Of a stretch of DNA of 64,000 nucleotides, positions 28,242 to 54,414 are shown one piece after another; positions within the stretch are counted from its first letter, which is position 1; each line of letters begins with the position of its first letter. The notes below the pieces were generated by a model. The model did no database searches and was not told where the DNA came from. It saw nothing but the letters and a program-made list of their open reading frames with translations. Made by a program: the position numbers and the translations under genes. Origin of the DNA: Polaromonas sp. UBA4122 (GTDB lineage Bacteria > Pseudomonadota > Gammaproteobacteria > Burkholderiales > Burkholderiaceae_C); the NCBI RefSeq assembly GCF_002381615.1, contig NZ_DFWY01000078.1:21268-85267 (forward strand), written 5' to 3'.

Positions 28242-29624
28242 CTACGCAAGCGCGGCCGCAACCTGAGACTTTGCAGCGACGCCCTGCAGAAAAGGCCGCA
28301 AGGCATTGAGGGTGTGCGCTGTCGCACCCCGGTTTCGCGCCGCAAACGCCAGGCTTGCCGACACGGCGCTGACCTGCGCCTGCGTGTCGCCCAGCAGCAG
28401 GAGCGCCGCCTGCACGGCTTGCGGCAGACCCGCCACCCGGCGGGCCGCGCCTGAGGCTTCGGCCAGCTCGGCGGCCTCGGCAAAGTTGTAGGTGTGCAGA
28501 CCCATCACCACGGGGCAGCCGCAGGCGGCGGCCTCAATCAGGTTCTGGCCGCCCAGCGGTGCAAAGCTGCCGCCCAGCAAGGCCACATCGCTCAAGCCGT
28601 AATACAGCGCCATCTCGCCCAGCGAGTCTCCCAGCCAGATATCGGCCTGCATCGCATCCATGCTCTCAGCCGGCCCAGCCGCCCACGCTGAGCGGCGCGA
28701 AACCCGCAAGCCCTGCTGTTCAGCCAGCGCCTGCACGTCGCCAAAGCGCTGTGGGTGGCGCGGCACAATCAGCGCCTTGAAGCGTCCTGCCGGGACCGCT
28801 TCAGACTGGCTTTCTGCTACCGTATTAATAGCTGCTTGCGCCCGCGCTGCTTTGGCTACAGCACTTATTTCCTTAAAAAATTCGTCTTCTTCACCGTCCC
28901 GCGAGCTGGCAAACATCAGCACCGGTTGCGCCACCGCCTGCCGCCACGCTTGGCCCTGCGCGAGTTGGCGGGCGTCGGGCGTGGCGTCAAATTTGAGGTT
29001 GCCAAACACACCCGCCACCGTGGCGCCCAGCTGGCGAAAGCGCTGGGCATCGGTCTCGGTCTGCGCATAGACCGCCGACAGCGCTCCGTAGGCCGGGCGT
29101 GACAAAGGCGCCATGCGCAGCGCCTGTTGCAGCGATTTTTCAGACAAGCGGCCATTGACGAGCACCAGCGGCATGGCGCGCGCTTGGGCGGCGGCCATCA
29201 TGTTGGGCCAGATTTCGGTTTCCATCAGCAGCCCAAGCCGCGGCTTGAAGTGGTAGAAAAACCGGGCCACGGCGGCCGGGCTGTCCCACGGTTGCCAGAC
29301 CTGCACATCACCCGGCTGCAACAGGCCCACGCCCTCGGCACGACCGGTGGCCGTGCCATGCGTGAGCAGAATGCGCAAGTCCGGATGCTGCGCGCGCAAT
29401 GCTTTGAGCAACAGCGCCGCCGTGCGCGCCTCGCCCAGCGAAACGGCATGCACCCAGACCAATTCCGAAACGCTTTCCGCCTCCTGGGTGTAATGACCAA
29501 AACGCTCGTCCATCGCCACCAGGTAACCCGGCTCCTGCCGACCCCGGCGCGCCAGTTTGCGTCGCATTAGCGGTTGCACCAGCCACATCAGCAGTGAATA
29601 AATGCGAAGGGCCAGGGCATTCAT
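28242..29624 (-). CDS. waaA: 3-deoxy-D-manno-octulosonic acid transferase
   Basis: WVHAVSLGE, METEIWPN, PRHPQRF, GGQNLIEAAACG. Confidence 0.96.
   Translation of the reverse strand: MNALALRIYSLLMWLVQPLMRRKLARRGRQEPGYLVAMDERFGHYTQEAESVSELVWVHAVSLGEARTAALLLKALRAQHPDLRILLTHGTATGRAEGVGLLQPGDVQVWQPWDSPAAVARFFYHFKPRLGLLMETEIWPNMMAAAQARAMPLVLVNGRLSEKSLQQALRMAPLSRPAYGALSAVYAQTETDAQRFRQLGATVAGVFGNLKFDATPDARQLAQGQAWRQAVAQPVLMFASSRDGEEDEFFKEISAVAKAARAQAAINTVAESQSEAVPAGRFKALIVPRHPQRFGDVQALAEQQGLRVSRRSAWAAGPAESMDAMQADIWLGDSLGEMALYYGLSDVALLGGSFAPLGGQNLIEAAACGCPVVMGLHTYNFAEAAELAEASGAARRVAGLPQAVQAALLLLGDTQAQVSAVSASLAFAARNRGATAHTLNALRPFLQGVAAKSQVAAALA
28816..28880 (+). repeat. family A repeat inside waaA
   Basis: GCTAC-CGTATTA-ATAGC-TGCTTGCGCCCGCGCTGCTTTGGCTACAGCACTTATTTCCTTAAAAAA; encodes FFKEISAVAKAARAQAAINTVA. 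Confidence 0.88.
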
Positions 29625-52211: not shown

Positions 52212-52979
52212 TCAGGCCACCGGCCCGAAAAGCCGCAACCACTTTTTGGCGGGCAGGTCCCAGCGCGATTCAATCACGTCGGCCTGCAGCAAGAGGTCGG
52301 CCCGCTCGGGGCGCGTGGGTTCGCGCTGGGCCATCACCACCGTGTTGCCCTCACGCGTCGGCCGGAAAGCCCAGACCGACTCGGGACCGAAGGCCTCGGC
52401 CATCCTGGTAAGCGACTCGACATAGCTGGAATCGCGACCAAAGAGGTTCACCGTCATCACCCCATCGTCGGTCAGCAGGCTCCGACAGTGGGTGTAAAAA
52501 TCAGCGTCGTCCAGCACCGGCGCAGCGGCTTCTTGGTCATACAGGTCAACGTGCAGCAGATCAACCGTGCCCTGATGCTCAGGTTTCTGTATCTCCGAGC
52601 CCGCATCGGCTTCAATGACATGCAGGCGCAAATCGTCGCGCGGCAATTTGAACCACAGCCGACAGGCCGTAACTACCTGCGGGTTGATCTCGACCGCCGT
52701 GGTTTTCATGCGCAGCTTTTTGTAGCAGAACTTGGTCAGCGCCGCCGAGCCCAGGCCCAGTTGCATCGCATGCTTTTTGGCCACCGTCTGCGCATCCACG
52801 AACAGCAGCCCCACCATCATGCGCTGCACATACTCCAGCTCAATGTCATAGGGCGCATCGCGCAGCATGGAGCCTTGCACCCATTCGGTGCCCAAGTGCA
52901 GAAAGCGCACCTCGCCGTAGTCTGAAAAATTGACTTCGGGGAGCTCTGCAGTGGCTTTAACCGTCTCTTTTTTCGACAT
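52212..52979 (-). CDS. spermidine synthase-like SAM-dependent transferase
   Basis: LHLGTEWVQG, LGLGSAALTK, VEINP, VDLYD. Confidence 0.88.
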   Translation of the reverse strand: MSKKETVKATAELPEVNFSDYGEVRFLHLGTEWVQGSMLRDAPYDIELEYVQRMMVGLLFVDAQTVAKKHAMQLGLGSAALTKFCYKKLRMKTTAVEINPQVVTACRLWFKLPRDDLRLHVIEADAGSEIQKPEHQGTVDLLHVDLYDQEAAAPVLDDADFYTHCRSLLTDDGVMTVNLFGRDSSYVESLTRMAEAFGPESVWAFRPTREGNTVVMAQREPTRPERADLLLQADVIESRWDLPAKKWLRLFGPVA

Positions 52980-53572
52980 TAAATCAATCCATGTTTTTCA
53001 AAAACCTCGCGCCAGGCAGCGAGTTTGCGCTCAAAACTCCACGACGCATTCGCCGGACTGGTTGAAGGCAACTTGTGAAATTGGACCCCCACGCTTTTCA
53101 CTTCGTGTAATGCGCTGCCCCCCGAGGGGGCGGTGCTTGCTTGGGGCGGCCCGGCGCGGCGCACGGCGGCTCCCGTCCCCTCTAATGCAGCCCTGACATG
53201 GAGCGAATGCTTGAAGCTCTCCCCGCCGTTATGGGCAATGGCCTGCAATGCAGGGCAAAGCCGCTGTATCTCTGCAAAATCGTTCACCACCGGATGGCGG
53301 ATATGACTGTCCAGGCTGCCTTCGCGTTCGCACGCCACATACACGTCCCACAGACCCAGCTGCTTGGACAACAGCCAATCACTACGAATTTTATAGCTGC
53401 TCACGCCCGTATCTATTGGGCTAGAAGGCCAAATGGCTTGCAGAATCTTCCAGAAATGGTTTTGCGGATGGCCATAATACTGCCGCGCCGCGAGCGACGC
53501 CACGCTCGGAAAACTACCCAGTATCAGCAGGCGCGTGCGGCTGGAAACCAGCGGCGGCAAACCGATCAGCAC
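52979..53572 (-). CDS. DNA-deoxyinosine/MUG-like glycosylase (UDG superfamily) carrying two repeat-derived segments
   Basis: LILGSFPS, YYGHPQNHFW, LWDV...SLDS, LPSTSPANA. Confidence 0.9.
   Translation of the reverse strand: MLIGLPPLVSSRTRLLILGSFPSVASLAARQYYGHPQNHFWKILQAIWPSSPIDTGVSSYKIRSDWLLSKQLGLWDVYVACEREGSLDSHIRHPVVNDFAEIQRLCPALQAIAHNGGESFKHSLHVRAALEGTGAAVRRAGPPQASTAPSGGSALHEVKSVGVQFHKLPSTSPANASWSFERKLAAWREVFEKHGLI
53086..53162 (+). repeat. family B repeat in-frame inside MUG-like gene
   Basis: CCCCCACGCTTTTCACTTCGTGTAATGCGCTGCCCCCCGAGGGGGCGGTGCTTGCTTGGGGCGGCCCGGCGCGGCGC; encodes VRRAGPPQASTAPSGGSALHEVKSVG. Confidence 0.92.
53381..53446 (+). repeat. family A repeat in-frame inside MUG-like gene
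   Basis: ACTAC-GAATTTT-ATAGC-TGCTCACGCCCGTATCTATTGGGCTAGAAGGCCAAAT; encodes AIWPSSPIDTGVSSYKIRS. Confidence 0.85.
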
Positions 53573-54414
53573 GAGATCAGCGCCCTGAGCTTGGGCAAGG
53601 CCTGCAGCGCGTTGGCGGTGGTGGCCAGGGCCAGTGCTTCAGCCGACAGGCTCCGCAGGCTCGCCACCTGCTGCGCGATGCGCGGCAACTCGCCCGGCTC
53701 ATTGCGGCCCTGCGCCTGGCCTGCCCCGCGCTGCGCTGCGGTGGTGTAAATCCAGTGCGGCGGAATGTCGGGTGAGTCGGTTTCCATCACCAGCGCGTCC
53801 AGTGGCAACTCAACGGCCAGGTGCCTGAGCTGCCGGGCTGGCTCAAACGTCACCGCGCCACCGAAACCCAGCTTGAACCCCAGTTTGATGAACGCCATCG
53901 CCTGCTGCTGGCTGCCATTGAAGGCGTGGGCAATACCGCTCCAGCCGCCTTCAGGCACCAGTTCACGCAAGTGCTTGAGCAGCTTGTCGGCCGAGCGCCG
54001 CACATGCAGGATGACCGGCAAGCCGTGCTTGCGCGCCAGTTTGAGCTGCTCGCGATAGAAATGCTCCTGCCGCTCCCGCATCGGGCTTTCGGTCAGCGCG
54101 GGCACAAAATAATCAAGCCCGATTTCACCCACCGCCACCAGGCGCGGGTCAGACTTTCTGAGGGCCAGCTCTGCATCCAGCACCTGCAAATCGGCGTCTT
54201 GCGCCCTGGGCACCAACAGCGGGTGAATGCCCAGCGCATAGCTGAAAGAAAACTCATTCGCCAGCCTACGCACCGCAGCAAAGTTGCCGACCTCAACAGC
54301 AGGCAACACGCAATGCGCCACCCCGTTGACAGCAGCCCGCGCGCGCACCGCTGCCACATCCGGGGCGAACTCCCCCGCATCGAGGTGGCAGTGGGTATCG
54401 ATCCAGAACGTCAT
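53566..54414 (-). CDS. tatD: TatD-family hydrolase/DNase
   Basis: IDTHCHL, GIHP, VGEIGLD, LHVR, AHAFNGS, METDSP. Confidence 0.93.
   Translation of the reverse strand: MTFWIDTHCHLDAGEFAPDVAAVRARAAVNGVAHCVLPAVEVGNFAAVRRLANEFSFSYALGIHPLLVPRAQDADLQVLDAELALRKSDPRLVAVGEIGLDYFVPALTESPMRERQEHFYREQLKLARKHGLPVILHVRRSADKLLKHLRELVPEGGWSGIAHAFNGSQQQAMAFIKLGFKLGFGGAVTFEPARQLRHLAVELPLDALVMETDSPDIPPHWIYTTAAQRGAGQAQGRNEPGELPRIAQQVASLRSLSAEALALATTANALQALPKLRALISC

What the first reader, a model, noticed from the sequence alone, without database searches (positions are those of the whole stretch)
52979..53572. One 197-aa glycosylase hosts both repeat families in-frame
Seen in sequence: family A (53381-53446) and family B (53086-53162) together make up roughly a quarter of the CDS, yet the frame, the GSFPS, YYGHPQNHFW and PSTSPANA motifs and the overlaps with both neighbours are intact. 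The B copy ends a few codons before the PSTS motif. Inference: two independent acquisitions tolerated in a probably active enzyme, making this the best single model for repeat-driven protein evolution in the window.
Basis: partly seen in the sequence, partly recalled or inferred. Interest (0 to 1): 0.65.

Follow-up and report, generated by a model that had tools for sequence, protein, structure and literature searches.

The report
DNA-repair gene carrying translated repeat elements
A small, apparently working DNA-repair enzyme of a Polaromonas bacterium has an ~85-base genome-wide hairpin repeat translated as a floppy surface loop, plus a much older repeat-like stretch; this in-frame "coding repeat" pattern is known from Rickettsia and was seen earlier in this scan.

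Summary
Window 52979-53572 (-) encodes a 197-aa family-6 UDG, a hypoxanthine-DNA glycosylase (TIGR04274, E 1e-41). Its motifs are intact and it overlaps both neighbours (tatD, speE-like).

Family B (53086-53174; about 97 genome copies) is a real in-frame insertion. The loop before the PSTSPANA motif is 17 aa in most orthologues and 49 aa here. AlphaFold models it as low-confidence coil on an intact core.

That loop varies across Polaromonas:
- B in antisense orientation in at least 12 species.
- B in the opposite orientation, at another junction, in two.
- In-frame tandem copies (84-nt period) in one.
- Remnants elsewhere.
- At least 10 state changes on two trees.

Family A (53382-53438) is a significant match (E 4.7e-7), but it is not a recent insertion. 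It sits at the same site in Polaromonas, Rhodoferax and, in part, Variovorax. It adds no length compared with A-free genera.

dN/dS is 0.09-0.22, so the gene is not decaying.

About a third of B copies and a quarter of A copies lie in frame inside genes. Four genes carry both. The closest analogue is the Rickettsia palindromic elements. This scan already reported the same B element in IcmF of another Polaromonas. This is a new member of a known kind.

The parts
52979..53572 (-). CDS of a 197-aa family-6 UDG (hypoxanthine-DNA glycosylase), GTG start
   Evidence: TIGR04274 142.5 bits against a cut-off of 80, E 1e-41. PF03167. PDB 2L3F by sequence, E 2e-21, and by fold, TMt 0.85.
53086..53174 (+). 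Family B repeat copy, antisense to the gene. Translated as about residues 134-162 (GAAVRRAGPPQASTAPSGGSALHEVKSVG).
   Evidence: Absent from most orthologues. pLDDT below 50 for residues 142-159.
53382..53438 (+). Family A-like segment, antisense to the gene. Encodes about residues 46-64 (AIWPSSPIDTGVSSYKIRS).
   Evidence: nhmmer E 4.7e-7 with an independent profile; 43.3 bits after iteration. Shared position across genera.
53504..53518 (-). Motif 1, GSFPS (residues 19-23)
   Evidence: G19, S20, F21 and P22 are invariant in 59 orthologues.
53450..53479 (-). YYGHPQNHFW (residues 32-41)
   Evidence: Y32, Y33, H35, N38, F40, W41 invariant.
53045..53068 (-). Motif 2, PSTSPANA (residues 169-176)
53566..54414 (-). 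Upstream tatD-family hydrolase gene, overlapping the HDG start by 7 nt
   Evidence: PF01026, E 6e-59. Synteny is kept across Comamonadaceae.
52212..52979 (-). Downstream speE-like (PRK04457-type) aminopropyltransferase-like gene, overlapping the HDG stop by 1 nt
   Evidence: NF003380, E 9e-52, below its cut-off. Synteny.

Best explanation
The gene is a functional family-6 uracil-DNA-glycosylase-superfamily enzyme, a hypoxanthine-DNA glycosylase. It is the middle gene of a conserved tatD-HDG-speE-like operon of a Polaromonas.

Family B is an ~85-nt multi-hairpin dispersed repeat found across the bacterial family. A copy lies antisense and in frame in the connection between the last long helix and the beta-strand that leads into motif 2. 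It is translated as a ~30-aa Gly/Pro/Ser/Ala-rich disordered loop on the side of the sheet away from the catalytic loops, so the enzyme tolerates it. This placement is an inference from the model topology.

The element suits such sites for two reasons. Its unit is 84 nt (28 codons), and each orientation has one preferred stop-free frame.

That loop varies across Polaromonas. At least two independent insertions (opposite orientations, different junctions), a tandem amplification and partial deletions have occurred. The antisense-B allele class was probably founded once and then spread patchily by loss and by homologous exchange between species. The exchange step is inferred.

The family A-like stretch is an old embedded copy, or a converted stretch, that predates the genus. 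It now simply encodes a variable loop and the first turn of helix 57-69.
For: Identity and integrity of the enzyme. Purifying selection, dN/dS 0.09-0.22 against 12 orthologues. B is an insertion: loop of 17 aa in about 70 orthologues against 49 aa here. The B peptide is modelled as low-confidence coil while the core is confident. B in both orientations, tandem copies, remnants and conserved junctions. Patchy distribution: at least 10 changes on the tatD+speE tree and on the HDG tree; one clade of antisense-B alleles is rejected (p-AU 2e-84 and 4e-8). All complete B-bearing alleles keep the frame. Genome-wide: 32 of 97 B copies and 120 of 471 A copies lie inside called genes, with strong phase bias. 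Seven sampled B hosts are bona fide Pfam-domain proteins. B hairpins show compensatory changes: covariation 0.21 against 0.11 in shuffles, 0/500. B was found in 100 of 121 genera sampled in the family. A is ancient and length-neutral in this gene.
Against: My gene calls are crude: a codon-usage ORF picker giving 81% coding. The intragenic fractions are therefore approximate. The coding score of this gene is low (10.7). The flanks of the loop differ between B-bearing alleles (HV.AAL...F[HY]K) and short alleles (HT..LGLPVYK). No clean empty site or target-site duplication could be defined, and gain, loss and recombination cannot be separated. B copies are about as similar between paralogues as between orthologues, so divergence gives no date. 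The distance of the loop from the active site was inferred from topology, not measured. HDG was not found in six genus genomes, three of them 93-99% complete, so selection on it may be weak in some lineages.
Confidence: 0.78

Rival explanations
1. The gene is a decaying pseudogene. The repeats mark loss of constraint, and the open frame is kept only because B has stop-free frames.
For: Low codon-usage score. HDG was not found in six genus genomes. A quarter of the CDS is repeat-derived.
Against: dN/dS is 0.09-0.22 outside the loop. All invariant residues and motifs are present. The start and stop overlaps with the neighbours are kept. Every complete B-bearing orthologue is in frame. The AF2 core is confident.
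Confidence: 0.05
2. The B-encoded loop is not merely tolerated but adaptive. It could be a flexible DNA- or partner-binding appendage, or an mRNA structure that tunes translational coupling to the downstream speE-like gene. That would explain why the same loop carries B so often.
For: B alleles recur in this loop in many species, in both orientations and in tandem copies. In the P. glacialis group, B is more conserved than synonymous sites (0.95-0.96 against 0.78-0.86). The mRNA-sense fold is -33 kcal/mol.
Against: The B peptide differs completely between orientations and varies in its modules. Most Polaromonas and other genera do without it. The conservation is equally explained by constraints on the element's own hairpins. 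The AF2 model gives no structure for it.
Confidence: 0.1
3. The family A-like stretch is not derived from an A element at all. The native loop sequence (WP..P[IL]..G...Y..R) merely resembles the element by chance or convergence.
For: There is no length difference from A-free genera. The residues conserved in those genera (P, P, I/L, G, Y, R) are kept. Third-position conservation in the stretch (0.66) is hardly above the rest of the gene (0.60), and that comparison was made on sequences selected for A-likeness.
Against: E 4.7e-7 genome-wide with a profile that excluded it, and 43 bits after iteration. The stretch is AT-rich (47% GC against 58% for the CDS) with atypical codons (AGC TAT AAA ATT CGT AGT). 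In WaaA the same family is a real ~20-aa insertion shared by several genera, so old intragenic A copies do exist.
Confidence: 0.12
4. All B-bearing alleles arose by separate insertions into a strongly preferred target, a true integration hot spot, rather than from one founder plus recombination and loss.
For: At least 10 changes on both trees. B modules are mosaic between species: L031 and L037 share one arm, L033 and L037 the other. Opposite-orientation insertions exist.
Against: All antisense-B alleles share the same 3' junction, the same frame and the distinctive flanks HV.AAL / V.F[HY]K. Remnants in other genera (L070, L074) suggest an old event.
Confidence: 0.25

Closest known systems
Rickettsia palindromic elements (RPEs; Ogata et al. 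2000/2002, as summarised in PMC10969869)
   Same: A dispersed palindromic/hairpin repeat family inserted in frame into many unrelated housekeeping genes. It is translated as an extra peptide at positions compatible with the fold. One search gives the description; searches give the parallel here.
   Different: A different sequence family. The unit is shorter (~85 nt against ~150 nt). The host is a free-living betaproteobacterium. Both orientations are used, each with its own preferred frame. In-frame tandem copies occur. The family is spread over about 100 genera of the bacterial family. Homology to RPEs was not tested.
Family-6 UDG / hypoxanthine-DNA glycosylase (Methanosarcina barkeri HDG, Lee et al. 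2011, cited in PMC8438529 and PMC10776899; structure 2L3F)
   Same: HMM membership, motifs and fold.
   Different: A 32-aa longer loop before motif 2, and 3 extra residues in the loop after helix 40-47. Activity is untested.
REP/REPIN elements mobilised by RAYT (Y1) transposases, and MITEs in general
   Same: Short, structured, multi-copy and non-autonomous. Hairpins show compensatory changes. Y1 transposase genes are present in the genome.
   Different: No terminal inverted repeats or target-site duplications were established. The only RAYT-like hit is below the NCBIfam cut-off (47 against 80 bits). No linkage of B to a transposase was shown. REPs are typically extragenic.
The same B element reported earlier in this scan inside IcmF of another Polaromonas (e1-5196146)
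   Same: The same ~80-nt multi-hairpin Comamonadaceae repeat, in frame in a surface loop, with that loop reported as hit repeatedly in relatives.
   Different: A different host gene (a DNA glycosylase). Here there is also an opposite-orientation allele, a tandem array and a second repeat family in the same gene.

Membership tests
Family-6 UDG (HDG, TIGR04274) | Scores above the curated equivalog cut-off | tested here: met
   142.5 bits against 80, E 1e-41. The match is interrupted at residue 130, where B begins.
Family-6 UDG (HDG, TIGR04274) | Motif 1 GS[FL]PS, the Y-Y-x-x-P-x-N-x-F-W block and motif 2 PS[ST]S-x-A | tested here: met
   All three align to 2L3F.
Family-6 UDG (HDG, TIGR04274) | UDG alpha/beta fold | tested here: met
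   AF2 pLDDT 84, pTM 0.81. Foldseek best hit 2L3F, E 6e-12, TMt 0.85, followed by MUG/TDG.
Family-6 UDG (HDG, TIGR04274) | Excises hypoxanthine and lacks uracil excision | not testable with these tools
   Needs a biochemical assay.
RPE-like in-frame coding repeats | Dispersed multi-copy family with hairpin or palindromic structure | tested here: met
   97 B and 471 A copies. B MFE is -31 to -39 kcal/mol. Compensatory pairs in two helices; 0/500 shuffles reach the observed covariation.
RPE-like in-frame coding repeats | Many copies inserted in frame in unrelated conserved genes | tested here: met
   32 B and 120 A copies lie inside called CDSs with phase bias. Seven B hosts carry Pfam domains. 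The gene calls are crude.
RPE-like in-frame coding repeats | Insert lies at a surface position compatible with the fold | tested here: met
   B residues 142-159 are low-confidence coil between helix 123-140 and strand 164-168, and the core is intact. Prediction only.
RPE-like in-frame coding repeats | Sequence homology to the Rickettsia RPE families | not tested
   No RPE sequences were compared. There is no Rfam hit in the window.
MITE | Terminal inverted repeats and target-site duplication | tested here: inconclusive
   Junctions were inspected. Copies have an AT-rich 5' end, but no clear TIR or TSD, and no clean empty site.
REP/REPIN-RAYT system | A cognate RAYT gene flanked by the repeat | tested here: inconclusive
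   Y1_Tnp hits at five loci: two IS200-type by NCBIfam, one RAYT-like at 47 bits against a cut-off of 80, two not classified. A copies lie within 500 nt of three of the five, which is weakly more than chance. No B linkage beyond one copy about 1 kb away.

The most novel reading that the evidence does not exclude
The helix-to-strand loop of this glycosylase may be a genuine recurrent integration or conversion target for a family-wide mobile hairpin module built to fit coding sequence: an 84-nt (28-codon) unit with one stop-free frame per orientation. Embedded copies would then be kept homogeneous by conversion from the other genomic copies. The length-neutral A-like stretch would be the end product of the same process, repeat sequence overwriting native coding sequence rather than inserting into it. 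That would make these repeats a continuing, templated source of protein loop variation in free-living bacteria.
Probability: 0.2. Interest if true: 0.7.

Novelty: new member of a known kind. Interest (0 to 1): 0.45.

Why it matters
It shows in one small, assayable enzyme that a structured genomic repeat can be carried in frame over long periods under purifying selection. One loop displays most of the element's natural history: both orientations, tandem amplification, nested replacement and deletion remnants. The case extends the Rickettsia "coding palindrome" pattern to free-living Comamonadaceae. It also offers a simple test system for whether such inserts are neutral passengers or functional: the native enzyme, an insert-deleted version and natural B-less orthologues. 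For annotation, it warns that HMM matches to such genes are split (TIGR04274 stops at residue 130) and that codon-usage scores drop.

Tried and rejected
- Rfam scan of the whole window: no family matched.
- Literature search with exact sub-sequences of A and B: only unrelated primer hits.
- RNAalifold on raw MAFFT alignments of genome copies gave no useful consensus. A hand-drawn structure had to be tested instead.
- Dating B by divergence was rejected. Orthologous and paralogous B copies are equally similar: 94% to L032 against 78% for the gene, and roughly 95% by eye to a paralogue in the same genome.
- Testing for DNA-level constraint on the A stretch by third-position identity gave 0.66 against 0.60. 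The sequence set was selected for A-likeness, so I make no claim.
- The idea that A generally overwrites rather than inserts was tested on WaaA and does not hold as a general rule. There A is a ~20-aa insertion relative to several genera.
- A first regex-based extraction of orthologues missed most of them and was replaced by tblastn.

Full report
**1. What is at the coordinates**

The minus-strand ORF 52979..53572 (GTG start, 197 aa) matches NCBIfam TIGR04274, DNA-deoxyinosine glycosylase, at 142.5 bits against a cut-off of 80 (E 1e-41). It also matches Pfam UDG.
- The nearest solved structure by sequence is 2L3F, a Methanosarcina acetivorans putative UDG (E 2e-21).
- Family 6 of the UDG superfamily is the hypoxanthine-DNA glycosylase family first described from M. 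barkeri (PMC8438529, PMC10776899, PMC5387724).
- The gene overlaps tatD by 7 nt and a speE-like gene by 1 nt.
- Record titles of related loci place the genome in Polaromonas. The tatD-HDG-speE-like order is kept through Polaromonas, Rhodoferax, Variovorax, Acidovorax and other Comamonadaceae.

**2. The repeats are real**

I built nhmmer profiles from other window copies, leaving out the copies in this gene.
- The B profile found 88 hits and the A profile 322 hits in the 4.17-Mb, 59% GC genome. After one iteration the counts were 97 and 471.
- The gene's B copy scores E 4.8e-19.
- The gene's A copy scores E 4.7e-7, rising to 43 bits on iteration.
- The repeat finder extends the B copy to 53086-53174, 89 nt.

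**3. B is an insertion**

In 2L3F only about four residues lie where this protein has about 36. I compared about 100 orthologues from the genome search and genome contigs.
- The segment between NGGES and PSTS is 17 aa (FKH..HT..LGLPVYKL) in most Polaromonas and most other genera. It is 49 aa here.
- The AlphaFold2 model, built on a 59-sequence alignment, has mean pLDDT 84 and pTM 0.81. Its core is confident.
- The model has a helix at 123-140 and low-confidence coil for 142-159 (pLDDT below 50). Strand 164-168 then leads into motif 2.
- Foldseek returns 2L3F (TMt 0.85), then MUG/TDG.
- The insert sits in a helix-to-strand connection. In this alpha/beta fold that connection lies at the edge of the sheet opposite the catalytic loops. 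This is my inference from topology; I did not measure it.

**4. The loop varies among species**

Antisense B at the same 3' junction and in the same frame occurs in at least 12 other Polaromonas genomes. These include G021, the P. glacialis/CG9_12 group, LC052, GLR68 and 338R. Other states of the loop:
- G008 and G009 carry B in the opposite orientation. It is inserted about 40 nt upstream and encodes a different peptide, IAPTLATSCAAQPPEGAISPWGGPAAK.
- G017 (the same sequence as swi_bin.257) has at least two in-frame tandem copies with an 84-nt (28-codon) period. Its assembly breaks inside the array.
- In the P. glacialis group the 5' half of B is replaced by unrelated sequence.
- L070, L074 and probably G012 (L018) keep only B termini. 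These look like deletion remnants.

On a tatD+speE protein tree, B presence needs at least 10 changes, and a single clade of antisense-B alleles is rejected (p-AU 2e-84). The same holds on a DNA tree of the HDG gene with the loop removed (10 changes, p-AU 4e-8). I named the allele groups after seeing the trees, so these p-values are only indicative.

The antisense-B alleles share distinctive flanks (HV.AAL upstream, V.F[HY]K downstream) that differ from the short allele. I therefore favour one old antisense insertion, followed by decay, loss and exchange of the loop region between species, plus a second independent sense insertion. I cannot exclude a true integration hot spot.

B modules are mosaic between species. 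B copies are about as similar between paralogues as between orthologues. Divergence therefore cannot date the event.

**5. A is old, and in this gene it adds no length**

The A profile hits the same CDS positions (about 130-194) in most Polaromonas, in Rhodoferax/Albidiferax, and over its 5' half in several Variovorax.
- From N.FW to LWDV the protein is 40 aa here and 39-41 aa in Acidovorax, Diaphorobacter and Curvibacter. Their DNA in this region is GC-rich and not A-like.
- The pattern WP..P[LI]..G...Y..R.W is common to both groups.
- Distant homologues and 2L3F are only 3 aa shorter.
- In this genome the stretch is AT-rich (47% GC against 58% for the CDS) and uses atypical codons.

So the similarity is statistically real, but no insertion event can be shown. 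It could be an old insertion with a compensating deletion, a conversion, or, less likely, convergence.

To see whether A normally inserts, I compared WaaA. There the A copy is a ~20-aa insertion relative to several genera, and it is shared by others. The "overwriting" reading suggested for rsgA by a first-stage note is therefore not a general rule.

**6. The gene is under purifying selection**

Outside the loop, Nei-Gojobori dN/dS between this gene and 12 orthologues is 0.09-0.22, with dS of 0.5-1.0.
- All 35 columns that are invariant in 59 orthologues are kept.
- Every complete B-bearing allele is in frame.
- HDG was not found in six of 24 genus genomes, three of them 93-99% complete. The enzyme is therefore dispensable in some lineages, which may help explain its tolerance of inserts.

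**7. Context of the repeat families**

I called genes with a crude codon-usage ORF picker (3482 genes, 81% coding).
- 32 of 97 B copies and 120 of 471 A copies lie wholly inside genes.
- Phase is strongly biased. For B the counts are antisense 17/4/0 and sense 1/9/1. For A they are antisense 50/10/7 and sense 10/40/3.
- Seven sampled B hosts are genuine proteins: FdhD, MotA/ExbB, SulP, a biotin carboxylase, an APH-family kinase, a Mur ligase and an Edd/IlvD dehydratase. The B copy interrupts or adjoins their Pfam domain alignments.
- Four genes hold both A and B.
- BLAST with the consensus finds B in 100 of 121 genera sampled in the family, at up to 96% identity. It finds A in 26 of 121.
- I tested a five-helix model of B on 52 genome copies. 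It gave 85% paired cells and a covariation score of 0.21. Shuffled controls gave 0.11 (0/500 reached the observed value) and slid controls 0.06-0.10.
- In that test, compensatory changes occur in 4 of 5 pairs of the small hairpin and 6 of 8 pairs of the 3' stem. The structure was drawn from these same sequences and the copies are related, so this is support, not proof.
- The genome has IS200/IS605-type and one weak RAYT-like Y1 transposase genes. I found no convincing link to B.

**8. Comparison with what is known, and verdict**

The closest described phenomenon is the Rickettsia palindromic elements, which insert in frame into many genes at fold-compatible sites (PMC10969869). An earlier follow-up in this scan (e1-5196146) described the same B element in an IcmF loop of another Polaromonas and reached the same comparison. 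My results agree with it and were obtained independently.

The finding is therefore a well-supported new example of a known kind. Two of its points need correcting: A is not a recent acquisition, and the gene is not unique in hosting both families.

Noticed in passing
G000 contig C2:9273-12662 (outside the window): A 1129-aa ORF that looks like IcmF (recognised from memory, not Pfam-tested) carries a sense-orientation B copy at about residues 270-296.
   Followed up: no
G000 contig C124:21548-22372: A MotA/ExbB-family gene ends with two in-frame tandem B copies in sense orientation (…APTLVASRTALPPEGADFPRGGPAENLT ×2), which form its C-terminal tail.
   Followed up: partly
window 28815-28879 (WaaA, gene 28242-29624, minus strand): The family A copy in WaaA is a true ~20-aa insertion relative to several genera. 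A similar peptide (…QAQAAIN…) is present at the same site in other genera, so it too is old.
   Followed up: partly
G000 C87:2217-2573, C151:14029-14392, C68:29142-29300, C79:26356-26685, C138:2-106: Five Y1-transposase (IS200/IS605 or RAYT-like) genes or fragments. Family A copies lie within 500 nt of three of them, slightly more than expected for one A copy per 8.9 kb. This is a lead for what mobilises A.
   Followed up: partly
G000 B copies listed; L034, L036, L038, L039 HDG loop: Several B copies carry a ~70-80-nt nested insert (GCGAGGCCTTGCAGGCC…) between the first hairpins and the GCCCCC hairpin. In the P. glacialis-group HDG alleles the 5' half of B is replaced by other sequence. B behaves as a modular scaffold.
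   Followed up: no
L048 (CALRQR020000013.1): The record is titled as a Synechococcus sp. UW140 MAG. Its tatD-HDG-speE locus sits inside Polaromonas on both trees, next to Polaromonas sp. YR568. It is probably a mislabelled or contaminated bin.
   Followed up: no
genus genomes G001, G002, G004, G013, G016, G022: No HDG orthologue was found; five gave only B-peptide matches in other ORFs and G013 gave no match. Three of these genomes are 93-99% complete. HDG is not universal in the genus.
   Followed up: no
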